Shown piece after piece: positions 20,708 to 39,268 of a DNA stretch of 64,000 nt. The DNA lies in assembly GCA_964187785.1 (NCBI GenBank), contig OZ076409.1, positions 1,798,001 to 1,862,000 of the forward strand. The letters are read 5' to 3'. The stretch is from Amphiscolops sp. MND2022. Its lineage: Eukaryota. Positions within the stretch are counted from its first letter, which is position 1; the number at the start of each line of letters is the position of its first letter. The notes beneath the pieces were generated by a model that was not told the origin of the DNA, did no database searches, and worked only from the letters and a program-made list of their open reading frames with translations. The position numbers and the translations under genes are program-made.

Positions 20708-21033
20708 ATTCATCGATATGGGCAAGATCAAAACCTCGATGGAAATTCTTCGTGATCAAGCATCCCAGCAGAAGATTCTGTCAGTTTTAAAACCCCTTGT
20801 GTGCGGAGTCGATTTAAGTTTATTGTTCAATTTGTTCCAAGTCGTTCAACAGTAGCTAGACCAAGCATTAAAACATGTCGACGTGATTTTCGAAAAATTA
20901 ATTGAAATAAGTGAGACCAACAATCCTCTGGCGAAATCTGCTTTCAAAAAATTTACAAAAGTACTCGAAAAAACTCTGGTTTGAAAGTCGTCGCTGACCT
21001 GAGACGGGGTGAGAGCTTTTCTGCCCCTTCTCA
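20708..21033 (+). pseudogene. hAT-like transposase remnant, left of the Gypsy insertion
   Basis: KKFTKVLEK(N)SGLKVVADL-like translation that continues after 39108. Confidence 0.45.
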
Positions 21034-21754
21034 TGTAACGGCAACTGCCCATGTCAAAATTTTCGAAGCAAAAATTCGTTCAAATCTGACGTGGCACTCA
21101 AACATGCTTCAGACGAAAGACCTGTCAAAAAAAGCAGATCCGAAATCAGAAATCGCCCCCGCGAGAGAGGACGAAAAGAGAAGACGTAGAAAACAGTCCC
21201 TAGAACACGGTGAAGTGCCCATCTATGGTCTTTGGCGTTTACACTACATAGGTAACAGAAACCGGTGTTCCAGATGCTCGCCTGAAGATCCTGCGGCGTC
21301 CTGTGCGGTGACGAGCGCTAGCGCTGGGAAGCCATGGTCAATTCGCTCCTGCTAAAAACTCAAACTTCTGATATTGTTGTGCTTATTGTGCTTTCCTTGT
21401 TGTAGTAGATTGATATGCTCGAGAGCTGCTCATTTACATCTATGGTTACCCCTTTTTGATGTCGATTTTATCAGATTCTCCAATACTATGGCTCAACATC
21501 CTCCTGTTTTCAGCCCCCTTTTTAAAGGCTAATTGAGCAGTGGTCTTGAGACATGCAAGATGCCCGTTACTTTTAGCAGTTACAGACTAGGACCAGGCCA
21601 GAGAGTTTCCAACAAGACGGTTCCCCCACCTTGGGACTGGCTCCTTCGGAGGGAAAATGAGCTAGGGCCGCGGAGATCTAGGTCCCAGATTATATTCGCT
21701 GTTCTAGTTCCTCCATTCTACGTTGCGGTTCAAGCGCCAGCGCTTATCGTTACA
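21034..21754 (+). repeat. 5' LTR of Gypsy element
   Basis: No differences from 38388-39108 found by eye. Confidence 0.98.
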
Positions 21755-21769
21755 TAGAACCTCATTTTT

Positions 21770-21789
21770 TGGCGACCACAGAGGGATCG
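21770..21789 (+). promoter_or_regulatory. Primer-binding site, tRNA-Arg-like
   Basis: TGGCGACCACAGAGGGATCG; its reverse complement ...TCCCTCTGTGGTCGCCA resembles a eukaryotic tRNA-Arg 3' end with CCA. Confidence 0.75.
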
Positions 21790-22965
21790 TCTTGGGAAGC
21801 TTTCCCTAGCGGTTTTTAAAAGATCTGGCCCCCTGGTAATCAGCGCCAAGCCCGTTTTGACTCTGAAGAAGGAGAGAAAAGCAGAGTTTTGCCCTTTTTT
21901 AGTCGTGTGACATTCTACTGGAACTGGGAGAGGCGTTGAACCAGAGAAAACCCGAAAAAATCACGTTTTCAGGTGCGAAAATGGTATTTTTAGGTGTTTT
22001 GGAAGGAAATCGATATTTTTGTGTGATGTGTTGTGTGCCCATCAGCGGGTATCTTTTTGCAGGTGCTGAAGACCGTAGCACGTGGCTACGGGTGTTTAAC
22101 AGGTTTTGCAAGCTATTTTCAGCCATTTTATGCCATGCAAGAGGGTGACTGGTGGATGGCTGACCATGAACCAGCGAGGCGAAGGGGGAGTCAAATTGTG
22201 TATTGCCTACTTCCTACTCCCATTTCTCGTGGAGACGTCCTAGAGGTATGGTTTTTGGTGGACAGCAAGTGCAATTGCAGACGATGCTAATGGTCCAACC
22301 CGCGTGTCTCTATCTGGTCTGGATGTGGAGAAAAAGCGTGGTGAAGGTGCACCCCCTGTGACCGGACGCGTCGCTCAAATGGCTCATGGTCGGTGAAATT
22401 TTTGAAAATGCACCTTTTTCGACGGGGAATCGTTGGTGCAGGTCAGTAATGTTTTGTTGTAGATGTAACGACACCCTACGAAGTGCTTTTCTGTAAAAAA
22501 GATAGCACTTGCGTGAAAAAACCCTGATTTTGCGTTTTTTTCGTGTTTTTCGTGGTTTTGAGCACTTGTGCTCAACGGAGCCAGGAAAACTTCGTGAAAA
22601 GTGTTGTAAAAAGCAGCTGCAAGGCTCGAGAAAGCTAGTACGAGGCACAGAAGGCCGTAATTTTGCCTTTGGTTGTGATAAAAGTGCCGGTCTAGCACCA
22701 GAAAATTGCAAAAAAGTGGAATTTTGACCAAAATGGCACCCAGAAACACAGGCGTACACTGGTGTAGAAGTATGAAAAAGCAGTGTACGGTGTTTTGTCA
22801 AGCGTAGTAAACCCACAGGACACTAACTGTAACTTTTACAGCGGATTCAGGCAGCCTGGGGCTGACACGGCGCAAAAAAACCGGTAATTTAAGGTGTTTT
22901 TAGGCATAGAAAGTGCATTGTCTGAAAGTCTTGAGGGTGAAGCTTAGTGGACCAGAGCGAGTTTG

Positions 22966-23243
22966 AACGCTCTTATTTTCCGTTCTAGCAATAAAAATAG
23001 CGCATTTTGGTGAAAACCGCGTGCAAAAACTCCTTTTCAGTGTTGAGAAAAGTTGAAAAACCTTGATTTTTAGTCAGTTTCAGGAGTGTCTGAGTACACA
23101 ATTAAAACCCCTTGGGCACTCTGTCTTTTTGTTAGCTAGGAGCTTCCGCGCTCTCATTTTCTGTTTCTATAATAAAAATAACGCATTGTGGTGAAAACCG
23201 CGTGCAAAAACTCCCATTCAGTGCTGAGAAAAGTGGAAAAACG
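22966..23243 (+). repeat. Two ~95-bp direct repeats in the Gypsy leader
   Basis: GGTGAAAACCGCGTGCAAAAACTCC..TTCAGTG.TGAGAAAAGT occurs twice, 180 bp apart. Confidence 0.85.
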
Positions 23244-24461
23244 CACTGGATTTGATCAATTTTCCACAAAACCGGACTGTCTCTGAGCTAGGGTCGGGTC
23301 ATCGATTCCTGAACCCTAGCCAAAAAGTGGTTGCATTTTCGTAACCACCACAAAAAGTAACGTTAGTGCCGAAAATTTGGTGGGCGTATCGTTCCCCAAA
23401 GTCGAGAAAAGCTCTCTGACGTTTTGACTCCAGAGAAGCTGAAAAAGCCGAAAAAATCCAAAACTGCAGGACCGTCAGTGCCTTATACCTAACGGGCACA
23501 ACCAATTGAGGGTTTATCCCAGTGCTACGGATAGTGGGGCGACACGTTGGTCCCATTTTGCCCGCCGTATCACTTTCTGAGGTGATCCTCTTGGTCAATT
23601 TGTGAAAAAAGTAGTCAAAAACAGTGTTTTTTTGTGTACAACGTACATAGTGGGTCGAAACCTCAAATAAGCGCTCGCGCTTCAATTCGACCTTATCAGT
23701 GGCATTGTAGGTGCCCACAGGCATAAACTACCAAGTTTGGTGCCGATCTGTGTGATACTTGTTGAGAAAATAGGAAAAACGCGGCGCCCAAAAAGGTGTG
23801 CAAAAAGGCAGTTTTTTCTTAATTTTTCCAAGTAACCCGGGTACCTTAGCCGACGGGTGGGTCTATATTGCAGCCCACCATCGTAACCTGTGCTAGTTCC
23901 TACGTCGTTGCAGAGAATTTGAGCTTGCTAGCTTCTTTCAGTGGACCGCAATCTTGAAAAAGACGTGAAAAACAGTGTATCCCTGTACATAGTGGTACCG
24001 CACGCCTGTACCTAGGTGGAACTGTGTAGAAGGGGTGCAGCTCAATTCTGTGTTTATTTTCGTAAACCCACGCGTACCTAAAATCCGCTGGTCAAGTTTG
24101 GGCTTGATACGACGCTTCCAGCGCACACACGAGCCTCTTGAGTGTTGTAGTGCAAATTTTGGAAAATCCAAAAAATCTTTGAAATTCTTCCTGTGAGTGA
24201 CCGGAGACGCTTTGCCCTGAACCAGGTTGATTTTCTGGCCCAGTGTGCTTGTGGAAAAGCGCTGTGCAAATTTGAACAGCCTACGAGCCTTAAAACGTAT
24301 TTCGAGAAATTTGGGACGTTGCGAAACAGTCAAATTTCTTAAGTCCACACCGAGACGAACCTAGAGCTAACAGCGACTCGACAAATCCCGCGTTTTTCGA
24401 GGCTTCTTTAAAGGCTACGTCCGAATCGTTGACGCCTGCTCTGCCATTGGCATTGTGTGTA

Positions 24462-27400
24462 ATGGTCCTACCAGGCCTGGAAAAGCTTGACATGAGTTCG
24501 CAGTCATGGGTGACCATAGGATCCACAATGGACGGTTCGCATGTTTCAGACGAAATGTCTGACGAAGTCACTATCGAGCAACAACGAAAGGAGGAACTGG
24601 CCGCCATGGTCCCTCCCTCCGAGGGTTCCGTTGCATCTGGAAGCTCTCGTCGAACCGAACAATGGGTCGAAGAAATCTGTCGTGAAAGAGCCAATGAAGC
24701 AGAAGAAGAGTGGCCCAACTCAAACGTGACCAACGAACTTGCCTCGTCGATGAGCCAAATGACATCCTCCATGGTTCGAAGTGCCACCCGAGACCAAGGT
24801 GTGGACCCGATGTCACCTATCTATCTAGATACTTCTACCGAAGTTGATTTATCCTGTACTAAGGCCACACTAGGGTCCCAGACTGATGGAGCTGCGTATG
24901 CGACGGCCCCTACCATGGTTTCCGGAACGGACTCCCTGTATCTGACCGCCGACTGGACAGCTGAGGACGGGATGCCCTCGGGCGCTCCTTGCGCGAGTAG
25001 CACTCGCAGGAAAGAAGACGTGACGAACCTCTCAGTGCGAGCTACGCATGGCAGTGACGACGGTACTGATGATGTGGCAACCAAGGAAGGAGAGGCTGAA
25101 GTCATCTCTCCTGAGCAATTGAGGTTCACTGCCGCCATTTCCAAAGCAATGTCCAAAGAACTGGCACCGTTACTTGCGGGACGTGACCTGGCTCAAACCA
25201 AACCCAGCGTGTATCGAGGCTCTAAGGACGGGTCTATTGATGGCTGGATCCTAGTAATGCAGCGATACTTAAAGAGAATCCAAACCAAAATCTCGGCCGA
25301 AGATCGGGCCTGGAGCATTATCGGTCACCTCGAAGGTGAGGCTCGCAACTACATCATCAACAAGGCAGAGTCTGAACGTGACACCCCCGAGAAGGTGTTC
25401 GAGTTGCTATCTAGTCGATTTGGCGCGGGAGGAAATCGCATGCAGGTGCGGCAGACCTTCCAAAGCCGCGTCCAACAAGAAAAAGAAGACTGGATGCAGT
25501 ACTTAGACGCTTTAGAGGGTCTCAGGAGCCAAGGGTTCCCGCAAGAAAGTATCACTACTAAACGCTATGAAATCTTGCAACGCTTCATGGAGGGTGTGCG
25601 AGATCCAGTGTTGAGGCGTGAACTTGCTATAGTATACGCCTCGGAAACTTTTCTTACCGAACCCCCTACCGTGGAGTCCTTGCGATTTACCATACGTCAG
25701 CTGCAACGCAATCGTCCCAGACCCACCCAACCTCAACAACCCTATGATCCCCGATTAGCCATGAGGTCTAGACCTCATCCTTTCGCACCACTACCGCCGA
25801 ACAAGATGGTTATGCCGCAGGGCGTCTTGCCACCTCCGGCGCCCCCCCAAAATGTCCCAGCTCCGGCTATCCCAGCTCCCGTCCGAGCGCCAGTAGGTGC
25901 CTGTTTTCACTGTGGGCAAAACGGACATTTTGCTCGCGAGTGCCCCAATCGTGACCAAGCTCGAAAACCAATGACTGCCTCCGAACCAGAGGGCGTGAAG
26001 GTGACCACGGAAGACACGACCGATGGTATCCTTGAAGGTCATCCAGGGATCTATCAATGCGCGAGCTGTGGCCTTTTCGATCAGGCGGAAGTGCAATGTG
26101 GAGAGCACTCCCATGCGCCGAAACCCAATGAAGAGTTGGCCTACAATCGGTGGGCTGAGGTCGAATCAGCTGGCATCGCCGCGCACACCGTGCCTTTGGA
26201 GGATGACCGCGTGTTAATGCTACATCCAGCGGAACCGCCTGCGTTTCACACTCCAATGACATTCACTTGTGGTGCCAAGCAAGTTCAGACCTGCTTGGAA
26301 CCCACAACGTTCGATCCGCAAGGACGTACGCTAATTTCAATTCACCTGTTGCTGGCAGCTGAGCAAACGCGTAGGCCGACGCTAACTCTGGCCAAGCTAT
26401 GGGTCGAGTTGTCTATCCTCTATAAACGAAACGAGTTACCTCGACCGAAAGAATGGTACGCTCCGGGAGAGTCTGCGACTCTGACGACGTATTCCCCAGT
26501 GCCAGTCTGCGCTTCAATGGATGGAGTGGATATGAAATTCGAAGCCTGTGTGGTGGTGGATGTATTTCCCCCTGGCATTTGTCTGGGTCCCCAGGAGCTC
26601 AAATGCTATAACATCAATCACCAGGAGCCCACCGGCGAAGCGCGTATAGATGAGCGTGCGTCGCTCGTAGTCTCTTTCACGGTGCCTCATGCAGCACCTA
26701 TTCCGCTGCGAGGGCTGGTGGACACCGGCTCGGGCGTCTCCATACTGACGTTTTCCGCCTTCAACAGAGTGGCAGCTCGAACTGGAACGGTACTTAAACC
26801 CTACCAAGTTGACCTGTACGCAGCCAACGGGAAGACAATAAAGACCTACGGCCTCGCAGAACACATCCATTTCCAGCTGGGAGGATACGAACTTGAAACT
26901 AACTTTGTGGTGGTAGATGATGCAATGGGTGTGGAAGAGTTCCTGCTTGGCCGGAACTTTCTTCGATCCTACCAGGTGTTAGTGGATCTAACGTCTATGA
27001 AGATTGTGGTGCGAGCACCAGTGAAGCCTGTGTGGCATCATGCTCACGCACAGGTAGGTGACACTTCAATAGCTACTCCAGTCGTTTTGGACAGTGACTT
27101 GGTCCTGCAACCTTTCGAACGAGCGGTGGCTAGGGCCAAGCTCGTCACCAACACTCTAGAGCCGCTGATTTTTCAAAGCGTAGCGCTCAATGCCTCTCTG
27201 TCTGACACTACGTTGCATAATGTCGTCTTTTTAGAGGACAGCGTGGCCACTGTCAGTGAGACAGGAACACTCTTTGTGAGTCTGATAAATCTCACCAGCA
27301 ACCCTCAACGCATGCGGTGTGGTGTACAACTGGGCACCGTAGTACCCGTAACGGTAGTATACCAAGCAGTACCTCAATGTTTGGACTCTCCCACTACAAC

Positions 27401-30041: not shown

Positions 30042-32002
30042 GATCATCTGAAAATCTGCCCCTCAGACAGTAATAACACTGGCATCTTGGTCATAATTGA
30101 CCATTTCTCCAAGTTCGCGGAAGCAGTGCCCTGTAGTCATCATGACTACGACGCTGTGACTACCTCTCGGTTGCTGTTACAAAAGTGGTTCGCCCGTCAT
30201 GGCACTCCCACTAGGATGCAGTCTGACAATGCCCCTAATTTGACTGCCGAGGTGTCCAACGAATTCCTAAAAGCAGCCCACGTTACCAAAGTAACCTCTA
30301 CAGCTAGCCATCCGAGAACCCAAGGCTTGGTCGAGCGCCAAAATCGGACGCTGCTGACCCTACTGCGAGTTTTTTGTTCCCGCCGTATGCGCGATTGGGA
30401 CCAATGTCTTGATGAGGTCATGGGTGCCTACAACTCTACGAGGCACGCTACCACTGGCTTCTCACCCTACATGCTGACCCGTGGCGTAGAGAAGGCCATC
30501 CCTCTCACGTTCTTGTATCCCGAGTTTGCAGCCAAATCATTCGAGTCGCATGAGGCGTATGTCGATCATGTATTGGCTCGCCAACAGGAAATACATGACC
30601 TGGTACGGCGTAACACGCACCAAGCCCAATTGCGTCAAAAGTTGAAGTACGACCGTGCTATACAAGCGCGAGCTTACCAAGTAGGCGAGCTCGTCTGGGT
30701 TTTCTGCCGCTACGTACCGCAAAAGGGTTCCCCGAAATTGATGCGTGCTTGGCGAGGCCCGCACAAAGTGGTACAAGTTTTTCAGGACGGTCGTGTCTAT
30801 GTACTAGACACAGGTCAAAAGGTTCATTTTGAACGTCTTAAACCGCACCACAGTGGCCCACTTGAACTTGCTACTGCACACTCGGACAGTGGTGAGGTGG
30901 TGGTCCTTATGGACCCCGAACCTGAACGTTCCGTCGACGTAGTTGATGACGACAAGTCTTTATCGTCGTATAAACCAGAACAACTACTTTCAGAGGCGTC
31001 CGATGCATCTTTGCCCTCACGTCGACGTCACTGGATGGACACTCGACTACGCACGAAACTTCGCGCAGGCGGCTCCCGCCCGCATTATCAGCAATTTGAC
31101 TATTCCACCTCGGGTACAGACGACGAACTATCCGATGCCATGTTGCCAATACCTCCTAATCCCGTTGACGAGGATATGGTGGAGCCTGCGGCTCCTCCGA
31201 CTACGTTGGATCAGTCGATATCCCCTGCCCGTGTACTACCCCAACTGTTCTCTGACCATGAGCGCGTGCGCTCACCGTCTCCGCAGATATCCTCTGAAGA
31301 AGAGACATCGTTACCAGGAACCTCAGCATCCTTGTTGACGAATCCCTCGCTAACCAACTTTCTTAGTAACTATCCCATATGGCCGACCGCCCCTCCGATT
31401 CCCCTCAAATCTGCCAGCAGCGACAGCAACGTTCAGCCCGATCTGCCTGATGCTCCCGAGACTTCGCCAGGAGCGGGGACCGCTCCTTCTTTTAAAAGGG
31501 GGAGGGGGAGACCACCCAAGGCACAGAAGAAACGGCTGATCCGAGCGAAGGCAAGGACGAGGAAGAAAGAAACACCGAGAAATGCCGAAACCGAAACTGC
31601 GATCCAGGCCGAAACGGAAGCTCCCAGAACTGCAGAGACGCTAACAGAAGCATCTGCAACTGCTCTTAGGTATCAACTAAGGAGTAAACGACAGCCGCGC
31701 TACAAGTGTGGAACCTGCGGACTGCGAGATTGTGTCTGCCTATTAGCTGTGAATGAGAACCGGAGGGTTCCCATTGGAGCCCGGGGAGTTCCTCCGGAAG
31801 AGAGAGAAAACTTGGTGTACCGCCTCACGGTGCGGGCCGAAAAAACCTACTCAGCTGTAGAGCGGTCCGGAGACTACCCTGTGGACACTATCCTGGAGAA
31901 GTTGTCACTGCCTGGGGTAGCGAAGGCCCCTTGTCCTAGGTTTAAGGAGTGGACTAGCGATGGAAAGGGCCTGGAGTTTACCCTGCCCACGGTGTTGCCC
32001 CC
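30042..32002 (+). CDS. Gypsy Pol, part 2: integrase core, GPY/F-like module, long extension with AT-hook and Cys cluster
   Basis: Same frame as part 1. DHLK, IDHFSKF, QSDNA, GLVERQN, WRGPHKV..HFERLK, KRGRGRPPK, CGTCGLRDCVC. Confidence 0.9.
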
Positions 32003-33040
32003 GTGCCTAGTAATATTGCTTTTGGACCATTCAATTTTGAAAGAGAACCTGTGCAGATGGTCCGATGCATCACTGCTGACTTGTTATGCGACAAGTATGG
32101 AGTCCAGGTGGAACCAGGAGGGGTATACAGCCCGGCTCCTCACTGGTGGCTGCTGGTAACAGCTCCACGAGTGGAGGCGCTGGTGGAACCGTTGAATCTG
32201 TTATCCTGTCTGGAGAGTCTGAGGACCCTCACCACTGTGGACTTAATACTTTGCTTCCACATCATAGACTGGTACCGAGGCAAGATGAAATTCACGTGGT
32301 GGCTGGAACTAATAATCACATGTTTCGCCACCTATCCCAGAATTCGACTATTAGATGAGTGGACTCACACCTTCGAGATCCCCTTGTTCCCCAAAGCCGC
32401 CCTGGGAACTTTAGATGCGTGGGTAAAGGCCGGCAGCGACAATCGAGCGATGCCCCGCTCAGTATGGCAAGACCTGGCTGCAGTCCAAGGGCGTACCCCT
32501 CGCGTGTGTCTGCCCCCCGATAATGGTCCCGGACGAGAGATTGTTTACCCGGGAGCCCTGTATCCGAACTCAGCCGAACACGTCTCTTACGATGAATCCG
32601 ATTTCTTGCAGGCCGAGGGCGACATAGTGTTAGCATGCCCTGCTGACCTAAAGACCAACTCTGCCGCCCTGCGATATGTGCTGCGGGAGTGCGGCATGGA
32701 AGATGTATTTGCCTTACGACCTAAGGTGGGCGAGATTCTCACTATCCCGCCTGATGTGAACCCCAACCCTAACCAAAGTATTCACTTGTTGATAGTCCGT
32801 GCTAACCAGCGCGCACCGCTGCTGACAGATGACTACTTGCGTTGCATGACGTACTTGATACAGCGCCTGATAGATAAAGGATCCACACGGGTCCACCTAC
32901 CCATTCTGGATCCCGAGAGACCGGCTTTCTCGTTGGTTAACCTGTACCATACTCTAACGAGCATGTTCGAGGGTACTGGTATTCACGTGGTTTTGCATAG
33001 CCGCGTATATGTATCAATATTAACTATAGGGCTGAAGTAG
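32003..33040 (+). CDS. Gypsy Pol, part 3 (after a 1-nt frameshift): ends in a degenerate TARG1/OARD1-like macrodomain
   Basis: Frame change at a C5 run (31998-32002). The last ~140 aa (VSYDESDFLQAEGDIVLACPADL...KVGEIL...IHLLIVR...RVHLPIL...MFEGTGIHVVLH) follow the TARG1 pattern. Confidence 0.7.
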   Translation: MPSNIAFGPFNFEREPVQMVRCITADLLCDKYGVQVEPGGVYSPAPHWWLLVTAPRVEALVEPLNLLSCLESLRTLTTVDLILCFHIIDWYRGKMKFTWWLELIITCFATYPRIRLLDEWTHTFEIPLFPKAALGTLDAWVKAGSDNRAMPRSVWQDLAAVQGRTPRVCLPPDNGPGREIVYPGALYPNSAEHVSYDESDFLQAEGDIVLACPADLKTNSAALRYVLRECGMEDVFALRPKVGEILTIPPDVNPNPNQSIHLLIVRANQRAPLLTDDYLRCMTYLIQRLIDKGSTRVHLPILDPERPAFSLVNLYHTLTSMFEGTGIHVVLHSRVYVSILTIGLK

Positions 33041-33301
33041 CCTTTTCATTTTAGTTGTCCCCATTTTTCCTTTGCCCTCAGTTCTTGCAACAGTTTTTGT
33101 AACAACCTTGGAAGAGCCTTGAAATGCTCTCGAGATGTTAATTTGTCATGTTGTTCACTCAAAGGTTTTGTTCTAGTTCGTTAGTTAGTTAGAGTTAGAT
33201 TTTAAGTTTGTAGTGGCCCCCTTACGGAGCCGATGTTGCCTGGCTGCAATTGAAGGACGAACCGACTCACGGCTCGTTCCAGAGAGAACTTGTCCCTGTA
33301 A

Positions 33302-33323
33302 GTCTAACAGTGGTCCTTTTTAG
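33302..33323 (+). promoter_or_regulatory. Candidate branch point and splice acceptor for a subgenomic ORF2 mRNA
   Basis: GTCTAAC...TCCTTTTTAG ends 12 nt before the ORF2 ATG. Confidence 0.45.
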
Positions 33324-33335
33324 ACCTATGCATTA

Positions 33336-36300
33336 ATGGCCCATTGCCCAAACAATTCAGCGCCTGCAACCGGGTCTAATAGTGCAAGGCCCCAGGAATC
33401 TGCGCGAGCGCAGAGGGTCAATCAGGCCCAATATGTCGAAGAAAGGCTGCGGGACGGTCTTTCGCCAGTAGCCGTAGCTGGGGTGGCCGCCCTACTGACC
33501 CAGCTTGAATCGATGCAAATGCTGCCAAATGCATCTTTGTCAATCACCACGGAGGTGGCAAGCTATCGTCGCACCTTGACGTGCACCAACAATGCCTGGG
33601 ATGGGCACGACCTGACTCACCAGTTCTTGGACGAAAGATCAATCGCAGTGCATGGCCCCAGCCAGGGCACCAGATTCGAACAAGAAACATCACTGCGTAT
33701 GATGCCCGTCAACGTCCCATCGCTGCCTTCCATTGCGGCACCAAATCCAGTGCAGACGACGCCGTATTCTAGCTCGATTGCTTATGGGGCACCATATGGA
33801 ACCCGGGCAACGACGACGCAGAACATTACCAATCAACCTGCCTCAAGTCGGGAGCCCTCGGGGTCCCAACCGCCATCAGTGCCTAATCTAAATCTGATTG
33901 GACGGAGTCCCAGCGAGCAAGCGGTGATTGTGGCCCTGCAGGCTGTCGCCAACTACCCCAACTCCTCTGACTTCGTTCGTGCCGTTGAGCAAAGGATTCC
34001 CGGATTGACACATTACTTGCAAGCAGCCGCTCAGCCCTCGGGCTGCGTCACCCCACCCACCACCCTAGCCGAGACTGTGTCTATGGAAGCAGAAACTACG
34101 GCTGGACCAAGCACCAGCGCCATGACCTATCCCCGTGAGGAAACTGGCCGGAAGCGACTTACTGAGGAAAATATCGTCGCTACACGCCATGATTCCGTGA
34201 CCGACAGTCCGACCAGTCGTCCCCCTCCGGACAAGCGAGCAGATGTACCCCACCAGTCGCAGATGAAAAGTGTGGGTGTCGTGAGGCCTCCATATCGCGT
34301 CGGCCACCTAGGCGTAGGCGCGCCTCAGATGTCCCTGGAAGAGGCCATCAACCGCTACGGCAGTGTGGAAGCGAATCCTGAAACGAGTCCTGTGCCCTCG
34401 GGCACAGGCTCTGCCAACATGTCCTTGGAGGTGCCCGAGACAATCGATGAGACCAATCCTCCCGCCTTTCTTCCCCCGTCCGATGATGTATCCGGCACCG
34501 TGGTGACTGGCGATAGCAAACGCATCTGGATGGCGGCAGAGTGTTTGTACCCGAACACGTGTGCGGTCAGAAGGAGTGCACCGCCGTCTGACGCCGAGCA
34601 GAAAGAAGTGAGCAGAATCACCATTGCGGCTCAGATAACTCGGTCGCTACGTGCCCGTGATGCGGACTTGAGTGAGCAAGCCTGGGAACAGCGTGCTCGA
34701 GAGCAACTGCCCGCGACACCCAACAATTATATGGCTCGCCTGCAGCATGACCTCACCGAGCAATTTCCTGCTAGGTACATGTTGCACGAAGGGGAAACCT
34801 GGGAAGCCAACGCCCGCTATGCTCGCAACATCAAATCAATGAAGCCCCTCCTGAAAGCAGCTCTGCAGCGTGCGCGCTATTGTGTGGCAGTAGATTCGAC
34901 ACTCAGGAGTGATCTCCCCATCGACAACCTTCTGCCCGATGTGCTGGTATTAACAATGCCACTCTCCCGCTTCGCTGAGGTTGCCGAGATGGTCGCGGTC
35001 ATGTACGACCCTAACCTGAGAGGGTCTCTGAGAGAGCCGCCCCCGCGACGTGTAGTCTTCACCAATCTGATCGACCACATGGCTTGTGAAGGGCTGTTAC
35101 GCAACCTGGATGCCCTCATGGCAGATACCCGCAGACCTGGGAGTGTGGCGTCCTTAGTAAACGTGGTTGCAGACGCAATGGAGCGTGCAGCAGGGATCCT
35201 TCGGGGTCGTCTGGGAGCGCTCGCGCTCTTCGCATCCCCGCCGGGATTCATGTATTGGCAACGAAGCTTGCAGCAATTTGTGTACATCCTGTCTGAGGTA
35301 TGCAAAGCGCGCCGAATCGAGTTTGCTATTTGCGCGCCAAATCTGCGGGTTGATCGAGGAGACCTACGCCCCGATGCATTGTCATACCCCGCCTTCTTTG
35401 CTGCCGTGTCAAGAGTACTAATCGCTGTGGAACGATCAGGAAATGCACAACTGACTATCGACGACGCCATACTGTTCGATCATGGAATGTGTATGGGGCG
35501 AATGGCCTTCGACTTGGACGGGAATCGCGTCATGCGAGCATCCAACATGAGTGAACGAGAGGCCGTCCGACGATACAACTGGCTGGTGCGGAAGGACAAA
35601 GAAATTCCCGTACGAGCAGAGCTGGCAGAGCTCGTGAAGGAAATTGAAGCCTGGCCTGCCACACGCACGGTCGAAAGGACCATTCCCCAGATTCGGTTTG
35701 CCGCGGGAATAGAACCCGTCAAGTTGCCCGTGGGCATGAGGTACGTCGTGGCTATAGAGGCGACCAACTTGAAGGCTGAAGTAGATGCCGCCGGAATAAC
35801 GTATGCCGAATGGTATCAGTCCAGATTCGTGGACAGGACCCTGGCCGAGGTAGCTCAAGAGCTTAACTGTCCCTTGGAAGCCTTTTGTACCAGTCTCGGA
35901 CTAGGCTGGAACATCGACGTAATAGCCTCTGAGTACTTGCTCACCAATGTGCAGACCGACAAATTGTTGGAAACCATCGGCGAAGCTACTGTAGGAGAGA
36001 TGTTAGCGCTCGCGCTAGCCATGGGCCCGACGAAGTTTGTGGCAGGTCCCCTTGCTATGCTAGTCGAGTTGGTAGTGTCCAGTGATCTAGTCACCTTCTA
36101 CAGCTACCTGATCCTCGCGCAGGGACAACTACGCAGCCTAACTCGATGGGGCCACCTCCTAAATTCCAAGGACCAGCAAGATTATGTCGCCCAGCTGGAA
36201 CGCATGCGTGCGTCCCTCCAACATTGGTTGTACTCCACCCTAGTGTTCGCCTCTGGCTTGTTCGTAGGCGTGGATCAATCGCAACCCCTCCACCATTCCG

Positions 36301-37616
36301 AGCGTCAACTCCCTGCGGAAACGGCGGGATTCCCCATGCCCCAGCAAATCGCCGATTTGACTCTGGCCGAAGTGGAGGACTTCGTGGCCGTTATGGCTTC
36401 CGTCCTGGCCCCAATCTTCGGTGCGGTCGGTGTGTGCCGGTATCCCACCAAACCACTGGCGAGAACAGTACAGGTGCATATGGTCTCCTTCTGCACCTAT
36501 CTCCAAGGACGGCCCCCACTGACCTATCAGCGAATCGTGCAGGCTGTATTGAGTGGCGAGATGCCGCACGGGTACACCACCTTGAAGTCGGAGAAACAAC
36601 TAGAAGAGAATTTGATGGGTCTGTTGCGTGCCCGCACACGAAAGGCGTGCCCTTTGCCACGAGAATACGGCCCAGTCAACTGGTACTTCGCACCTCTCAG
36701 CCTGAATGGAGTCCCCTTTAGATTCCCCTGGTCGCAGGAGTTCATACGCAAGGTGATCCGTGCCAGCACTAGTGCTGGTCCACCCGTAGATCCCCTGTAC
36801 GCCTTCAAATGCATCACTTTCCCAAATCACTACTGGAAGGAGCCACTGGGATGGCCTAGAGCAAAACCCGTTGGTCGCGCCCCTGAAGCCTTCAATCGAC
36901 AAATCCAGTATATGGAATTGGCTCGAATCCCAAACTGGATTGAAGGAGCAGCTCAGACTCGTCAGAGGAACCTGCAGAGCCGTGTGACTCCGTTCCCAAG
37001 AAAAGCTGCCTGGCGACCGCAAGCCAAGATGACAATGTCAGGGGATATGTCCATCGTCCAACACGATGAGATTAATTCTGTGCTAGGCTCTGAAGCCCGC
37101 GCAGAGTGGGAAGGACATTGTTTGGAGCTGGAAATTGCCAGCTTCCCCAAATGGAAGCGAGCTTGCGAGCTATGGAGTCAGCCTTGCTGGGTCTCCAAGC
37201 GGATATCCTTGGCCGTGGAGAGTAGAGCTGAACTCGAGAGACAACAGGCGTTCGCGCCTACCATGCTGGCACCCACAATGGCCATGTCACTAAGTCAGCC
37301 CATCGACCGGCCCGTGACTCTGGATTTGCCCACTCACATCCTGCAGGCAGAGCCTGTGAGTCCACCATCGACACAAGCCAGTCCTCAGTCATCGCAACCC
37401 CAGACCGGAGAACACGACGCTGAATTGACCCCCAGCACTATCCTGGTGCAACCAATCGCCGATTTAATGCTCCCAGAGGACCTGTCAGACTCGGAAACAG
37501 TAGTGACTGTGGTTCCTGCTCAACGTAGGGCGTCAATTGCGTCGGAAGATGCCAGCAATCCAGGAACTCCCGATGATGCCATAAAGACTCGAACTCGACG
37601 CAGCTCAGCCCAATGA
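33336..37616 (+). CDS. Accessory ORF2 of the Gypsy element, 1426 aa, unknown function, putative degenerate SGNH-fold domain
   Basis: Intact 4.3-kb ORF between pol and the 3' LTR. S/P/T-rich termini, no N-terminal signal peptide, SGNH-like blocks at ~34875-35430. Confidence 0.9.
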   Translation: MAHCPNNSAPATGSNSARPQESARAQRVNQAQYVEERLRDGLSPVAVAGVAALLTQLESMQMLPNASLSITTEVASYRRTLTCTNNAWDGHDLTHQFLDERSIAVHGPSQGTRFEQETSLRMMPVNVPSLPSIAAPNPVQTTPYSSSIAYGAPYGTRATTTQNITNQPASSREPSGSQPPSVPNLNLIGRSPSEQAVIVALQAVANYPNSSDFVRAVEQRIPGLTHYLQAAAQPSGCVTPPTTLAETVSMEAETTAGPSTSAMTYPREETGRKRLTEENIVATRHDSVTDSPTSRPPPDKRADVPHQSQMKSVGVVRPPYRVGHLGVGAPQMSLEEAINRYGSVEANPETSPVPSGTGSANMSLEVPETIDETNPPAFLPPSDDVSGTVVTGDSKRIWMAAECLYPNTCAVRRSAPPSDAEQKEVSRITIAAQITRSLRARDADLSEQAWEQRAREQLPATPNNYMARLQHDLTEQFPARYMLHEGETWEANARYARNIKSMKPLLKAALQRARYCVAVDSTLRSDLPIDNLLPDVLVLTMPLSRFAEVAEMVAVMYDPNLRGSLREPPPRRVVFTNLIDHMACEGLLRNLDALMADTRRPGSVASLVNVVADAMERAAGILRGRLGALALFASPPGFMYWQRSLQQFVYILSEVCKARRIEFAICAPNLRVDRGDLRPDALSYPAFFAAVSRVLIAVERSGNAQLTIDDAILFDHGMCMGRMAFDLDGNRVMRASNMSEREAVRRYNWLVRKDKEIPVRAELAELVKEIEAWPATRTVERTIPQIRFAAGIEPVKLPVGMRYVVAIEATNLKAEVDAAGITYAEWYQSRFVDRTLAEVAQELNCPLEAFCTSLGLGWNIDVIASEYLLTNVQTDKLLETIGEATVGEMLALALAMGPTKFVAGPLAMLVELVVSSDLVTFYSYLILAQGQLRSLTRWGHLLNSKDQQDYVAQLERMRASLQHWLYSTLVFASGLFVGVDQSQPLHHSERQLPAETAGFPMPQQIADLTLAEVEDFVAVMASVLAPIFGAVGVCRYPTKPLARTVQVHMVSFCTYLQGRPPLTYQRIVQAVLSGEMPHGYTTLKSEKQLEENLMGLLRARTRKACPLPREYGPVNWYFAPLSLNGVPFRFPWSQEFIRKVIRASTSAGPPVDPLYAFKCITFPNHYWKEPLGWPRAKPVGRAPEAFNRQIQYMELARIPNWIEGAAQTRQRNLQSRVTPFPRKAAWRPQAKMTMSGDMSIVQHDEINSVLGSEARAEWEGHCLELEIASFPKWKRACELWSQPCWVSKRISLAVESRAELERQQAFAPTMLAPTMAMSLSQPIDRPVTLDLPTHILQAEPVSPPSTQASPQSSQPQTGEHDAELTPSTILVQPIADLMLPEDLSDSETVVTVVPAQRRASIASEDASNPGTPDDAIKTRTRRSSAQ

Positions 37617-38387
37617 ACCCTGCCGCTAATGGGAGCGTTCGCGCTCCCTATAGACTCTAAACTCTACCGAAACTGTGCCTTCAAACTTATCGCTTTAGCC
37701 GGTGCTACCCTTACATGGTGCAAATTTTTGTTCATAGTTATTACTTAGTTATTGTACTGTTAGTAATGCGCTGGGTGTACGGTTAATAGAGTGCACCTGC
37801 CCCAGCTGCTTCGCCTACAAAGTAAAAAAGAATCTATTACCAAAGAAAAACTGTTATTTCTGTTGCGCACCGTTCGCGGTGTTTTTGAGTTGCCATGGTC
37901 TAGAAAAAGTCTTAGCCTTTTAGTTACAATTTTTGCCGTTTTTCCTTGTGTTTTGGTGCTCAAGCACCTTCTATCGACTGTCTAAGGAGTAGCCGAAGCG
38001 GCGCCCTCCCAAAAGAAGTTTTATGTTGTCCGAAATTGATCGAAAACTGTAAATGTCAAGTTGCACAAAAAAGGAAATTTTAGCTGACCTTGGTCGCAAA
38101 AGAAATTTTAGCGAAAACTGCTTGCCCAAACGAGTTTTAACCGACTGAAAACCTTAGCTCTCGAGCTGGTGCTAAAACCTCGTTTGCACTATTTGTAAAA
38201 ATACTAGGCAGTAAAATTTTCTTTGAAAAAAACAGCGAAATTTGTCAAAAATAGTTGCTGAAAAACAAGGACTCGTCCTTGTCCCCTGTGGTGTGGATGA
38301 TGATCCCCAGCATTCTCAGCGATGCCGTTTCCAGACGAGGCCAGATGCCGCTTGCCAGGGACGACAAGCCAGAAGCCCGGGGAGTGA

Positions 38388-39108
38388 TGTAACGGCAACT
38401 GCCCATGTCAAAATTTTCGAAGCAAAAATTCGTTCAAATCTGACGTGGCACTCAAACATGCTTCAGACGAAAGACCTGTCAAAAAAAGCAGATCCGAAAT
38501 CAGAAATCGCCCCCGCGAGAGAGGACGAAAAGAGAAGACGTAGAAAACAGTCCCTAGAACACGGTGAAGTGCCCATCTATGGTCTTTGGCGTTTACACTA
38601 CATAGGTAACAGAAACCGGTGTTCCAGATGCTCGCCTGAAGATCCTGCGGCGTCCTGTGCGGTGACGAGCGCTAGCGCTGGGAAGCCATGGTCAATTCGC
38701 TCCTGCTAAAAACTCAAACTTCTGATATTGTTGTGCTTATTGTGCTTTCCTTGTTGTAGTAGATTGATATGCTCGAGAGCTGCTCATTTACATCTATGGT
38801 TACCCCTTTTTGATGTCGATTTTATCAGATTCTCCAATACTATGGCTCAACATCCTCCTGTTTTCAGCCCCCTTTTTAAAGGCTAATTGAGCAGTGGTCT
38901 TGAGACATGCAAGATGCCCGTTACTTTTAGCAGTTACAGACTAGGACCAGGCCAGAGAGTTTCCAACAAGACGGTTCCCCCACCTTGGGACTGGCTCCTT
39001 CGGAGGGAAAATGAGCTAGGGCCGCGGAGATCTAGGTCCCAGATTATATTCGCTGTTCTAGTTCCTCCATTCTACGTTGCGGTTCAAGCGCCAGCGCTTA
39101 TCGTTACA
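38388..39108 (+). repeat. 3' LTR of Gypsy element
   Basis: Preceded by purine-rich AGAAGCCCGGGGAGTGA; TGTAACG...CGTTACA. Confidence 0.98.
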
Positions 39109-39268
39109 TCAAATTGGAATTCATAGTTTTGCAAGATGTCTTACAGTTGATGTGGGGGGGGGGGGGGGTATTCCTCAATTTTAAGTGCTTTTATCGCTCA
39201 TCGTCCGCACATTCTTGATGAAACATTGTTAAAATTGTTGTCTATCAAGTACAATAGAAGGCTGTAAT
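39109..39268 (+). pseudogene. hAT-like transposase remnant, right of the Gypsy insertion
   Basis: IGIHSFARCLTVDV[poly-G]..SILSAFIAHRPHILDETLLKLLSIKYNRRL* resembles the ..AP.TS.DVER.FS.......R C-terminal pattern. Confidence 0.45.

What the first reader, a model, noticed from the sequence alone, without database searches (positions are those of the whole stretch)
21034..39108. 18-kb Gypsy element with an unusual combination of accessory modules: a candidate new lineage
Seen: LTRs with no visible differences, a 2.7-kb leader, a Gag-Pol of about 2860 codons when its two lesions are repaired, and a separate intact 1426-aa ORF. Established: most Ty3/Gypsy elements are much shorter, and a third ORF is usually Env. 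Inference: the tandem pseudo-protease, AT-hook plus macrodomain tail, SGNH-like ORF2, 3-bp TSD and displaced PBS together define a distinct retroelement system carrying several enzyme folds that appear catalytically dead.
Basis: partly seen in the sequence, partly recalled or inferred. Interest (0 to 1): 0.88.

Follow-up and report, generated by a model that had tools for sequence, protein, structure and literature searches.

The report
Giant Gypsy retrotransposon with macrodomain tail
This is a freshly inserted but broken copy of an unusually large jumping gene of an animal genome. Its integrase ends in ADP-ribose-type "macro" domains, and a large second gene has an esterase-like fold; both extras are conserved across a whole lineage of such elements.

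Summary
The element is real and lies exactly at 21034-39108. It has identical 721-bp TG..CA LTRs, a 3-bp target duplication (also seen in all 6 other copies examined), a 2.7-kb non-coding leader, Gag-Pol in Ty3/Gypsy order, and an intact 1426-aa ORF2.

Besides the stop codon and the frameshift, it lacks 834 bp (278 codons) of gag. Four of six other copies carry one uninterrupted frame of 3193 codons.

The Pol C-terminus is a TARG1/DarG-type macro domain (Z 15.4), probably preceded by a second, degenerate one. ORF2 contains an SGNH/GDSL-fold domain (Z 10.2). The "pseudo-protease" is only weakly supported, and no primer tRNA was found for the displaced PBS.

Tail and ORF2 lie side by side in at least four diverged sister families of the same genome, and ORF2 has relatives elsewhere. 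Both are under strong purifying selection (pN/pS about 0.1-0.3), so they are working parts, not debris. "Catalytically dead" is unproven.

An SGNH ORF3 has a published precedent in bdelloid Vesta elements. I found no paper describing a macro domain fused to an LTR-retrotransposon Pol. Verdict: a new variant of a known kind.

The parts
21031..21033 (+). 5' target-site duplication (TCA)
   Evidence: The same trinucleotide lies at 39109-39111. A 3-bp TSD is seen in 7 of 7 copies.
21034..21754 (+). 5' LTR, 721 bp, TG..CA
   Evidence: Identical to the 3' LTR, 0 differences.
21770..21789 (+). Candidate primer-binding site (starts TGG), 15 nt downstream of the LTR
   Evidence: Identical in 7 of 7 copies. 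An 18-nt form is exact in 5 diverged relatives whose flanks are only 66-82% alike. No tRNA gene was found.
21755..24461 (+). Non-coding leader of 2.7 kb. It holds a 103-nt direct repeat (22959-23061 and 23140-23242).
   Evidence: No Rfam family and no tandem array.
24462..33040 (+). Gag-Pol gene, broken in this copy: in-frame deletion, premature stop, frameshift
24742..24743 (+). Junction of an 834-bp (278-codon) deletion relative to other copies. The missing part is a predicted coiled-coil-like stretch of the Gag N-terminal region.
   Evidence: Only weak coiled-coil-type Pfam rows match the missing part.
25233..25631 (+). Gag capsid-like region (weak PNMA match)
   Evidence: PNMA E 0.0038, below the curated cut-off.
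25899..25949 (+). CCHC zinc knuckle
   Evidence: zf-CCHC E 2.6e-06.
26232..26645 (+). Pre-protease region, a possible degenerate retropepsin-like repeat without a D-T/S-G motif
   Evidence: hhalign against the PR region gives score 20.8, P 0.009, probability 4.4%. This is the best of the 9 pairs in the panel (the other 8 scored 8.4-16.2). Pfam and the Atlas give nothing.
26646..27044 (+). Aspartic protease (DTGSG present)
   Evidence: gag-asp_proteas E 1.6e-06; the motif is read.
27897..28379 (+). Reverse transcriptase (YIDD)
   Evidence: RVT_1 E 9.3e-35.
28575..28973 (+). RNase H
   Evidence: RT_RNaseH_2 E 3.3e-22.
29805..29969 (+). Integrase H2C2 zinc-binding domain
   Evidence: Integrase_H2C2 E 2.4e-15.
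30039..30041 (+). Premature stop codon inside the integrase
   Evidence: 6 of 6 other copies have a sense codon here.
30084..30443 (+). Integrase catalytic core
   Evidence: rve E 4.5e-07.
31494..31520 (+). AT-hook-like motif (KRGRGRPPK) in a disordered stretch of the Pol tail
   Evidence: Read and located. RGRP-type repeats are also in the relatives' consensus.
31707..31739 (+). Conserved CxxCx4CxC cysteine cluster
   Evidence: The cysteines are invariant in 11 aligned sequences.
31997..31997 (+). Site of a one-base frameshift
   Evidence: A length difference against 5 of 5 copies that could be anchored.
32009..32362 (+). Tail domain 1: alpha/beta, possibly a degenerate first macro-like domain
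   Evidence: pLDDT 66-91 over most of it. PARP14 macro1+2 and the SARS-unique-domain (SUD) chains align across both tail domains, and the PepB N-terminal domain gives Z 6.1. hhalign against the macro domain gives score 18.0, P 0.035, the best of 10 pairs.
32555..33013 (+). Macro domain of the TARG1/DarG/Poa1p type
   Evidence: Foldseek: TARG1 4j5s, E 8.7e-10, TM 0.81, rmsd 2.4. VIA: Z 15.4 (2lgr), 14.8 (5m3i).
33336..37616 (+). ORF2, 1426 aa, intact
   Evidence: Homologues of 30-99% identity and 462 library hits.
34710..35447 (+). SGNH/GDSL-fold domain of ORF2
   Evidence: VIA Z 10.2, 181 residues aligned, rmsd 3.8 (1bwp); nearly all of the top 50 chains are SGNH/GDSL proteins. Ser and Asn are conserved, His is not.
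35724..36263 (+). All-helical domain of ORF2, confidently modelled; its fold was not matched
   Evidence: pLDDT about 83-93. The fold searches barely tested this part.
36381..36437 (+). Conserved hydrophobic helix (..LAPIFG..) of ORF2
   Evidence: Kyte-Doolittle value 2.28. The equivalent segment is present in 4 of 4 diverged ORF2 proteins.
38356..38387 (+). Polypurine-tract region next to the 3' LTR
   Evidence: Identical in 7 of 7 copies.
38388..39108 (+). 3' LTR
39109..39111 (+). 3' target-site duplication (TCA)

Best explanation
SHOWN: The region is one very young, internally defective copy of an abundant LTR retrotransposon family of an animal genome. Full copies are about 18.9 kb and have Ty3/Gypsy gene order.

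A full copy has:
- 720-bp LTRs and a 3-bp target duplication;
- a 2.7-kb non-coding leader;
- one 3137-codon Gag-Pol: coiled-coil N-terminus, capsid-like region, CCHC knuckle, protease, RT, RNase H, integrase;
- an integrase extension of about 800 residues: a disordered stretch with an AT-hook-like motif, a Cys cluster, an alpha/beta domain, and a TARG1/DarG-type macro domain;
- a second gene of 1426 aa with an SGNH-fold domain, a helical domain and one conserved hydrophobic helix.

The tail and ORF2 are conserved, adjacent and under purifying selection in at least four diverged sister families. They therefore serve the element's own life cycle.

INFERRED (mechanism):
- The integrase tail acts at the integration step, on chromatin or on the cDNA. 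It either reads ADP-ribose marks to tether the pre-integration complex, as chromodomains do in chromoviruses, or removes ADP-ribose put on by a host defence. Split between the two: about 45% tethering, 35% counter-defence.
- ORF2 is not an envelope protein. It is an auxiliary membrane/lipid- or RNA-associated factor, analogous to the esterase ORF1p of CR1/L2 elements and the GDSL ORF3 of bdelloid Vesta elements.

The window copy cannot make Pol itself. It either acquired its lesions during its own reverse transcription or was mobilised in trans.
For: Anatomy:
-.

Youth and abundance:
- 6 of 7 copies have identical LTR pairs and 1 has one mismatch. Copies differ from each other at 3-11 of 720 LTR positions.
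- The LTR query gave 2392 first-look candidates; all 40 that were scored were 98-100% identical.

Intactness elsewhere:
- 4 of 6 other copies have an uninterrupted 3193-codon frame and 5 of 6 an open 1430-codon ORF2.
- 41 of 55 scored ORF2 matches lie in a 1430-codon open frame.

Folds:
- Macro domain.
- SGNH domain.

Conservation:
- The tail is found in 58 Gag-Pol proteins at 29-99% identity.
- Whole polyproteins are colinear at about 47% identity.
- ORF2 homologues reach down to 30% identity; there are 462 library hits.
- In the same genome, the tail lies directly upstream of ORF2 in loci of three further families, at 85%, 52% and 39-41% tail identity.

Selection, window family against the 81% family:
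- ORF2: pN 0.141, pS 0.718.
- SGNH domain: pN 0.097, pS 0.708.
- Macro domain: pN/pS 0.13-0.14. Tail domain 1: 0.09.

Host is an animal:
- A BEL/Pao element lies in the same window. That BEL/Pao is restricted to metazoans is recalled.

Precedents:
- GDSL ORF3 in Vesta elements and esterase ORF1 in CR1/L2 (PMC5408684, passages).
- Macro-domain ORFs in fish epsilon-like ERVs (PMC4977317, one passage).
- Capture of chromatin-reader domains by retrotransposons (bioRxiv 10.1101/2021.11.30.470311, passages).
Against: - No function was measured.
- The macro domain has no sequence match to Pfam or to PDB chains, and its ligand-binding residues could not be mapped. By eye it lacks the glycine-rich loops of typical macro domains, so ADP-ribose binding is not assured.
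- The SGNH domain has no conserved His at the block V position. The nearby His varies between H, Y and F.
- The flanks of the 7 insertion sites are no more AT-rich than the surrounding window (GC 0.37 against 0.38), so the AT-hook-like motif has no visible footprint on site choice.
- The tail model is of low overall confidence (mean pLDDT 52.5); only the two folded domains are usable.
- Expression and splicing of ORF2 could not be examined.
- Synonymous sites are near saturation (pS about 0.7), so dN/dS values are only upper-bound-like indications.
Confidence: 0.7

Rival explanations
1. ORF2 is a functional substitute for env. It would be a membrane-anchored protein that lets the element leave and enter cells, making this an endogenous retrovirus-like agent (errantivirus-style).
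For: ORF2 sits downstream of pol, where env genes lie. One conserved hydrophobic helix is present in 4 of 4 diverged ORF2 proteins. The SGNH fold is also used by viral receptor-destroying esterases (recalled).
Against: The first 440 residues are rich in S, T, P, G, A and Q (52%) and contain no hydrophobic segment, so there is no signal-peptide-like start. No viral glycoprotein or fusion fold appears among the PDB or BFVD matches. PMC5408684 argues the same for bdelloid GDSL ORF3s, which lack TM and coiled-coil domains.
Confidence: 0.12
2. The accessory domains are inert passengers. They would be fragments of host genes captured once and now decaying, with no role for the element (the reading 'catalytically dead' taken to its end).
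For: There are no Pfam hits for the tail or ORF2. The SGNH domain lacks a conserved His. The pre-protease region has no DTG motif.
Against: pN/pS is about 0.1-0.3 with saturated synonymous sites in ORF2 and in both tail domains. Both parts are retained and adjacent in families down to about 40% identity. Most copies keep ORF2 open. Specific motifs are invariant: DS and N in the SGNH domain; CPAD, LLxxR and DPER in the macro domain.
Confidence: 0.05
3. The macro tail is a counter-defence enzyme, not a tether. It would strip ADP-ribose that host ADP-ribosyltransferases place on the element's proteins or cDNA, as viral macrodomains and DarG do.
For: The closest folds are the hydrolase-type macro domains TARG1, DarG and Poa1p, rather than pure readers. 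That DarG and TARG1 reverse DNA ADP-ribosylation, and that viral macrodomains counter PARPs, is recalled. Position at the end of the integrase puts the domain next to the cDNA.
Against: Catalytic residues could not be mapped. Glycine-rich phosphate-binding loops are not evident by eye. No host ADP-ribosylating defence was looked for.
Confidence: 0.3
4. The 18-kb unit is a composite or an assembly artefact. ORF2 and the tail would belong to a second element nested inside an ordinary Gypsy.
For: The length is unusual, and GC is 52-57% inside against 33-40% outside.
Against: Seven copies on different contigs are colinear from LTR to LTR at 98-99% identity, each with its own 3-bp TSD. There are no internal LTR-like repeats. 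Tail and ORF2 are adjacent in three other families. Single predicted proteins of about 3000 aa span from gag to the macro domain in other assemblies.
Confidence: 0.02

Closest known systems
Ty3/Gypsy (Metaviridae) LTR retrotransposons
   Same: TG..CA LTRs. One Gag-Pol with a CCHC knuckle, aspartic protease, RT (YIDD), RNase H, and an H2C2 plus DDE integrase, in that order. A polypurine tract lies next to the 3' LTR.
   Different: About 18.9 kb with a 3137-aa polyprotein, roughly twice the usual size. The TSD is 3 bp rather than the usual 4-6 bp (recalled). The PBS candidate sits 15 nt from the LTR. The leader is 2.7 kb. There is no chromodomain. The integrase is extended by about 800 aa ending in macro domain(s), and there is a second large gene.
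Bdelloid rotifer Vesta/Juno LTR retrotransposons and Athena/Terminon elements (PMC5408684)
   Same: A non-env ORF downstream of pol that encodes a GDSL/SGNH-type domain. Such ORFs are said there to lack TM and coiled-coil domains and to play an auxiliary role (passages).
   Different: The rotifer ORF3s are said to keep all invariant SGNH residues. Here no conserved His is seen, the ORF is 1426 aa with extra helical and disordered parts, and no sequence similarity to known esterase families was detected. 'macro' occurs nowhere in that paper's main text (0 occurrences). Whether the post-protease region here is dUTPase-like, as in those elements, was not resolved.
Esterase ORF1p of CR1/L2/RTEX non-LTR retrotransposons (PMC3905857; Kapitonov and Jurka 2003, as cited in PMC5408684)
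   Same: An SGNH-fold protein encoded by a retroelement next to its polymerase gene, and proposed to link the element to lipids or membranes (abstract start; passage).
   Different: A different class of element and a different position (upstream, gag-like). Those esterases are described as catalytically active. No sequence relationship was shown here.
TARG1 (C6orf130) / DarG / Poa1p class of macro domains
   Same: Fold: TM 0.81, rmsd 2.4 A over 145 columns, E 8.7e-10. VIA gives Z 15.4, 14.8 and 12.6 over 138-142 residues.
   Different: 13-14% identity and no HMM-level sequence match. It is fused to a retroelement integrase and probably duplicated in tandem. Catalytic residues were not mapped.
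Macro-domain and CNPase accessory ORFs of fish epsilon-like endogenous retroviruses (Basta et al. 2009, as cited in PMC4977317)
   Same: A macro domain carried by a reverse-transcribing LTR element (one passage).
   Different: There it is an additional ORF of a retrovirus (Retroviridae). Here it is the C-terminus of Pol in a Gypsy-type element. I did not see the primary paper.
Chromoviruses (Gypsy elements with an integrase C-terminal chromodomain)
   Same: A chromatin- or mark-reading module appended to the integrase C-terminus (bioRxiv 10.1101/2021.11.30.470311, passages). This is a functional analogy for the tethering reading.
   Different: No chromodomain is present. The appended module is an AT-hook-like motif plus macro domain(s).
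OSK domain of Drosophila Oskar
   Same: An SGNH-like fold that appears among the matches (5a4a, Z 7.2). It is an example of this fold used without hydrolase activity, for RNA binding (recalled).
   Different: Z is lower than for true esterases, and no sequence relationship was found.

Membership tests
Ty3/Gypsy LTR retrotransposon | Direct LTRs ending TG..CA, flanked by a target-site duplication | tested here: met
   LTRs of 721 bp with 0 differences, and a TCA/TCA duplication. TSD present in 7 of 7 copies. Its length of 3 bp is atypical (typical 4-6 bp, recalled).
Ty3/Gypsy LTR retrotransposon | Pol domain order PR-RT-RNase H-IN | tested here: met
   Pfam coordinates.
Ty3/Gypsy LTR retrotransposon | PBS complementary to the 3' end of a host tRNA, next to the 5' LTR | tested here: inconclusive
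   A TGG-initiated 20-mer is conserved, but it lies 15 nt from the LTR. A genome search for the complementary 18-mer gave 5 places, all of them leaders of related elements, and ARAGORN found no tRNA there.
Ty3/Gypsy LTR retrotransposon | RT/IN sequences group within a named Gypsy clade (GyDB, Repbase, Dfam) | not testable with these tools
   No reference library is at hand. All 120 listed RT-IN homologues are unnamed.
Macro domain (TARG1/DarG-like) | Macro alpha/beta/alpha fold | tested here: met
   (E 8.7e-10; Z 15.4).
Macro domain (TARG1/DarG-like) | ADP-ribose-binding loops and catalytic residues | not testable with these tools
   No residue-level alignment to a solved macro domain could be obtained: the profile search of PDB sequences found none and Pfam found none.
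SGNH/GDSL hydrolase | Flavodoxin-like SGNH fold | tested here: met
   VIA Z 10.2-6.6; nearly all of the 50 listed chains are SGNH/GDSL proteins. Foldseek alone gave no E <= 0.001.
SGNH/GDSL hydrolase | Block I Ser (GDS-like motif after strand 1) and block III Asn | tested here: met
   'DS' follows strand 79-83 of the model in 14 of 16 aligned rows. The Asn follows strand 136-140 in 18 of 19 rows.
SGNH/GDSL hydrolase | Block V catalytic His (DxxH) | tested here: not met
   The corresponding stretch reads DDA(I/V/T/M). The nearest His varies between H, Y and F across the family. The mapping rests on sequence and predicted secondary structure only.
Retropepsin (for the pre-protease region) | D-T/S-G catalytic motif and retropepsin fold | tested here: inconclusive
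   No DTG or DSG is present in the region. hhalign against the true PR gives score 20.8, P 0.009, probability 4.4%.
Env-bearing Gypsy (errantivirus-like) | Downstream ORF with signal peptide, TM anchor and a viral fusion-glycoprotein fold | tested here: inconclusive
   One hydrophobic helix and no hydrophobic N-terminus. No glycoprotein fold appears among the matches, but only part of the model was effectively tested.

The most novel reading that the evidence does not exclude
A diversified lineage of giant animal LTR retroelements has armed its integrase with tandem TARG1/DarG-type macrodomains. These would erase ADP-ribosylation of the element's cDNA or proteins, or exploit it, making ADP-ribosylation a host defence against retrotransposition and this tail the counter-measure. 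The lineage has also replaced env with an SGNH-fold, membrane-active ORF2.
Probability: 0.2. Interest if true: 0.8.

Novelty: new variant of a known kind. Interest (0 to 1): 0.62.

Why it matters
LTR retrotransposons are known to borrow modules that steer integration (chromodomains) or help them move (env, esterases).

A macro domain at the end of an integrase would link retrotransposition to ADP-ribose signalling. That chemistry is used in DNA-damage signalling, antiviral defence and bacterial DarTG systems (recalled). It would also supply a natural, abundant and recently active system in which to test the link.

The lineage shows how large and modular a Gypsy-type element can become: a 3137-aa polyprotein plus a 1426-aa second gene, kept under selection in several co-resident families.

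For genome annotation, these roughly 19-kb units and their unnamed ORFs probably account for thousands of "uncharacterised" gene models. Clusters of 448 to 1094 member sequences were seen.

Tried and rejected
- **Sequence searches of the PDB.** The tail and ORF2 found nothing at E <= 1. A profile of the macro domain found only a chance row, E 1.1. The post-protease region found only a chance row.
- **Pfam at E <= 10.** The pre-PR region, post-PR region, RH-IN linker, tail and ORF2 C-terminal half gave nothing meaningful. No dUTPase, Macro or Lipase_GDSL family appeared.
- **ESM Atlas.** No usable hit for the ORF2 core or the pre-PR region. One search was a size error.
- **Foldseek with the ORF2 model.** No match at E <= 0.001 against either the PDB or BFVD.
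- **Complex prediction, pre-PR with PR.** The window-only job gave 'no answer', score 0.00. This is no evidence either way.
- **RNA evidence.** No RNA holder was listed for 29000-38380, so expression, splicing of ORF2 and transcript ends were not examined.
- **Rfam and Tandem Repeats Finder on the element.** Nothing found.
- **Primer tRNA.** No tRNA was found at the five places that match the complement of the PBS candidate.
- **AT-rich target preference.** Not seen in 7 sites.
- **Earlier findings of this scan.** Nothing on record.
- **Literature.** No paper describing a macro domain fused to an LTR-retrotransposon Pol turned up. Searches were 'LTR retrotransposon'+'macro domain'+'gypsy', 'macrodomain'+'retrotransposon'+'integrase', 'macro domain'+'retroelement' and 'macrodomain'+'LTR retrotransposon'. 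Nothing useful came from '3-bp target site' or 'giant'+'third ORF'. Repbase Reports and most subscription journals are not in that library.
- **Naming the clade.** All 120 listed RT-IN homologues are unnamed.

Full report
**1. What is at the coordinates**

Two direct repeats of 723 bp without a single difference lie at 21033-21755 and 38387-39109. Trimmed to the canonical TG..CA ends, the LTRs are 721 bp (21034-21754 and 38388-39108), flanked on both sides by TCA. The inside has 52-57% G+C against 33-40% around it.

Reading the + strand from stop to stop gives four frames:
- a frame of 1915 codons (24294-30041);
- a frame of 705 codons that continues it after one stop (30042-32159);
- an overlapping frame of 360 codons in another phase (31958-33040);
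- a separate frame of 1430 codons (33324-37616).

Pfam places zf-CCHC, an aspartic protease, RVT_1, RT_RNaseH_2, Integrase_H2C2 and rve in that order. It finds nothing in the last 360 codons of Pol or in ORF2. The gene order is that of Ty3/Gypsy.

**2. The genome and the other copies**

The window lies in an assembly of 1.07 Gb in 1929 contigs. A BEL/Pao element lies at 2133-7636 of the same window (DUF1759, Peptidase_A17, DUF5641). This points to an animal host; that BEL/Pao is confined to metazoans is recalled.

The LTR query found 2392 first-look candidates. The 40 that were scored were all 98-100% identical, and many form pairs about 18,190 bp apart, against 17,354 bp in the window.

I fetched six other copies, in three stretches each, and compared them without joining or altering them.
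- All six carry 834 more bases at window 24742.
- Four of the six have a single uninterrupted frame of 3193 codons. Five of the six have an open 1430-codon ORF2.
- Of 40 scored genomic matches to the deletion junction, only the window copy spans it.

The window copy therefore has three lesions:
- the in-frame loss of 278 codons from the N-terminal part of gag;
- a premature stop in the integrase, where 6 of 6 other copies have a sense codon;
- a one-base frameshift near 31997, absent from the 5 copies that could be anchored.

From the first ATG the family's Gag-Pol has 3137 codons and ORF2 has 1426.

**3. Age and ends**

Six of seven copies have identical LTR pairs and one has a single mismatch. 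Between copies the LTRs differ at 3-11 of 720 positions. The family has clearly been active very recently.

All seven copies have a 3-bp target duplication: TCA, TAA, TAA, GAA, AAA, TTT, AAA. This is shorter than the 4-6 bp I recall as usual for Gypsy elements.

A 20-nt stretch beginning with TGG lies 15 nt downstream of the 5' LTR and is identical in all seven copies. Searching the genome for the complement of its core, with one base chosen to fit a tRNA T-loop, gave five places. All five are leaders of relatives that are only 66-82% identical around the motif, and none holds a tRNA gene. The motif is thus conserved beyond its surroundings, which fits a primer-binding site, but its primer is unidentified.

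The 2.7-kb leader has no + strand ATG-ORF of 70 aa or more outside the LTR in any of the seven copies. It matches no Rfam family.

**4. The Pol tail**

I translated one natural uninterrupted copy without change (P0033). Downstream of the integrase core and its SH3-like end (read by eye), about 800 residues follow:
- a long low-complexity stretch with KRGRGRPPK (AT-hook-like);
- an invariant CxxCx4CxC cluster;
- two folded domains.

An AlphaFold model of the last 494 residues, built with 11 sequences, has low mean confidence (pLDDT 52.5) but two usable domains.

The last domain is a macro domain:
- Foldseek gives E 8.7e-10, TM 0.81 and rmsd 2.4 A to TARG1, with 272 PDB matches at E <= 0.001.
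- The independent aligner gives Z 15.4 (TARG1), 14.8 (DarG), 13.1 (DarTG) and 12.6 (Poa1p).

The domain before it may be a second, degenerate macro-like domain:
- Two-macro chains such as PARP14 macro1+2 and the SARS-unique domain align across both domains, though with large rmsd. The macro-like N-domain of PepB matches it at Z 6.1.
- A profile-profile comparison of the two domains scores 18.0 (P 0.035), the best of 10 pairs (the other 9 scored 8.8-13.3), but with a probability of only 1.5%.
- By eye the two domains share the pattern C-x-(T/A)-A-D-L ... hydrophobic strand ... (I/L)-(I/L)-D-x-x-R.

I call this probable, not shown. No sequence method recognises either domain, so active-site residues could not be mapped.

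**5. ORF2**

The ORF2 family is large. There were 28 hits in the indexed search, from 99% down to 30% identity, and 462 hits at E <= 0.001 in the exhaustive library, mostly fragments. None carries a name.

A model of residues 441-1290, built with 36 sequences, has mean pLDDT 69.4. Two domains are confident: an alpha/beta domain (ORF2 residues about 463-708) and a helical domain (about 801-980).

Foldseek found nothing at E <= 0.001. The aligner that compares the model with about 48,000 representative chains returned a list made up almost entirely of SGNH/GDSL proteins. The top match has Z 10.2 (181 residues, rmsd 3.8), and 17 chains have Z >= 8. The non-catalytic OSK domain of Oskar appears at Z 7.2.

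Across the family:
- the Asp-Ser after the first strand is conserved (14 of 16 rows);
- the Asn after the third strand is conserved (18 of 19 rows);
- so is a PPG after the fourth strand;
- the position of the block V His reads DDA(I/V/T/M), and the nearest His varies between H, Y and F.

The fold is therefore SGNH, the nucleophile pocket is kept, and the classical triad is not.

ORF2 has no hydrophobic N-terminus. It has one hydrophobic helix, conserved in 4 of 4 diverged members. The helical domain and the rest were not effectively tested by the fold searches.

**6. Are the extras part of the element?**

Yes.
- The tail was found in 58 Gag-Pol proteins of 1786-3114 aa at 29-99% identity. Whole polyproteins are colinear with this one at about 47% identity.
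- The same genome holds a family whose ORF2 is 81% identical: 33 matches scored, 17 without stops.
- It holds another at 43%: 32 scored, 16 without stops.
- It holds still more distant ones.
- In the six sister-family loci I checked (two each from three families), the macro tail lies directly upstream of ORF2 on the same strand, at 85%, 52% and 39-41% identity to this tail.
- The two most distant ORF2 relatives match this genome at only 31-34%, so they come from elsewhere.

Between the window family and the 81% family, synonymous sites are nearly saturated while amino-acid change is low:

| Region | pN | pS | pN/pS |
|---|---|---|---|
| ORF2, whole | 0.141 | 0.718 | |
| ORF2, SGNH domain | 0.097 | 0.708 | |
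| Tail domain 1 | | | 0.09 |
| Macro domain | | | 0.13-0.14 |

The tail values come from two loci. Three of the six family loci were in the wrong orientation for my script and were not used, and a fourth (L048) had a tail frame too short to use. Both extras have been kept by selection over a long divergence.

**7. The weaker claims**

*Pseudo-protease.* The 138 residues before the protease have no DTG. Their C-terminal part aligns to the protease's own C-terminal part. That is the best of nine profile pairs (score 20.8, P 0.009; the other eight 8.4-16.2), but with a probability of only 4.4%. Pfam and the Atlas give nothing. A duplication of the protease is plausible but not demonstrated.

*Catalytically dead.* This is an inference I cannot confirm. 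See sections 4 and 5.

*New lineage.* A lineage exists, but I could not compare it with curated TE libraries. All 120 listed RT-IN homologues are unnamed.

**8. How it most likely works**

Shown: a Gypsy-type replication machinery with two conserved additions.

Inferred, the tail:
- It sits on the integrase, combines a DNA-binding-type motif with ADP-ribose-type domains, and most resembles the TARG1/DarG class.
- It therefore acts at or around integration, in one of two ways. It may tether the complex to ADP-ribosylated chromatin, as chromodomains do for chromoviruses; capture of reader domains by retrotransposons is documented in bioRxiv 10.1101/2021.11.30.470311 (passages). Or it may remove ADP-ribose placed by a host defence.
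- Seven insertion sites show no AT-rich bias in their flanks. That neither helps nor excludes tethering.

Inferred, ORF2:
- It lacks the features of an envelope protein.
- It resembles in kind the esterase proteins of CR1/L2 elements and the GDSL ORF3 of bdelloid Vesta elements (PMC5408684, passages).
- I take it to be an auxiliary membrane-, lipid- or RNA-associated factor.

The window copy, with identical LTRs yet three lesions not seen in the other copies examined, was most likely damaged during its own reverse transcription or mobilised in trans. Damage after insertion is possible, but three lesions with no LTR change would be unexpected.

**9. Comparison with what is known, and novelty**

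The core is an ordinary Ty3/Gypsy element.

An SGNH/GDSL ORF downstream of pol is in print for bdelloid rotifers. Macro-domain accessory ORFs are mentioned for fish epsilon-like ERVs (PMC4977317, one passage).

In four literature searches I found no description of a macro domain fused to the Pol of an LTR retrotransposon, of this combination of modules, or of a 3-bp TSD as a family trait. The searched library lacks Repbase Reports and many journals, and I could not query Repbase or Dfam.

I therefore rate it a new variant of a known kind.

**10. What stays open**

- the primer tRNA;
- expression and splicing of ORF2 (no RNA run was listed);
- the folds of the pre- and post-protease regions, the RNase H-IN linker and the ORF2 helical domain;
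- ligand binding and catalysis of the macro and SGNH domains;
- placement in a reference phylogeny.

Noticed in passing
window 2133-7636 (+): A second, unrelated LTR retroelement of BEL/Pao type, in three stop-separated frames. Its matches are DUF1759 gag, a zinc knuckle, an aspartic protease, the Pao peptidase A17, integrase H2C2 and DUF5641.
   Followed up: partly
window 22959-23061 and 23140-23242 (leader): A 103-nt direct repeat, 83% alike and 181 bp apart. One other copy (locus L033) aligns with a gap between window 23060 and 23149 and is about 181 bp shorter overall (LTR spacing 18,007). The number of repeat units in the leader therefore seems to vary between copies.
   Followed up: partly
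window 36381-36437 (ORF2 residues 1020-1038): A proline-containing hydrophobic helix (..LAPIFG..) is conserved in ORF2 proteins that are only 30-43% identical overall. It could be a membrane anchor or an insertion segment.
   Followed up: partly
window 31707-31739: A CxxCx4CxC cysteine cluster, invariant in 11 aligned polyproteins. It lies between the AT-hook-like stretch and the first tail domain and may be a small zinc-binding knuckle.
   Followed up: no
window 23299-23727 (-): A minus-strand ATG-ORF of 141 aa in the leader is open in the window copy and in 4 of 6 other copies (141 aa), and shorter (124 aa) in 2. At 98% nucleotide identity between copies this may be chance.
   Followed up: no
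window 27045-27560 (post-protease) and 28977-29804 (RNase H-integrase linker): Two conserved stretches of about 170 and 276 residues have no Pfam or PDB sequence match. The first sits where bdelloid elements carry a dUTPase (PMC5408684). Neither was folded here.
   Followed up: partly
window 40487-40531 / 40636-40680 and 19152-19206 / 20232-20286: Short direct repeats (45-55 nt, 87-91% alike) in the AT-rich DNA on either side of the element. Their nature is unknown.
   Followed up: no
G000, genome-wide: At least four diverged families of this element type co-exist, each with many copies that carry open ORF2 frames of about 1250-1480 codons. Together they may make up a sizeable share of this genome.
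   Followed up: partly
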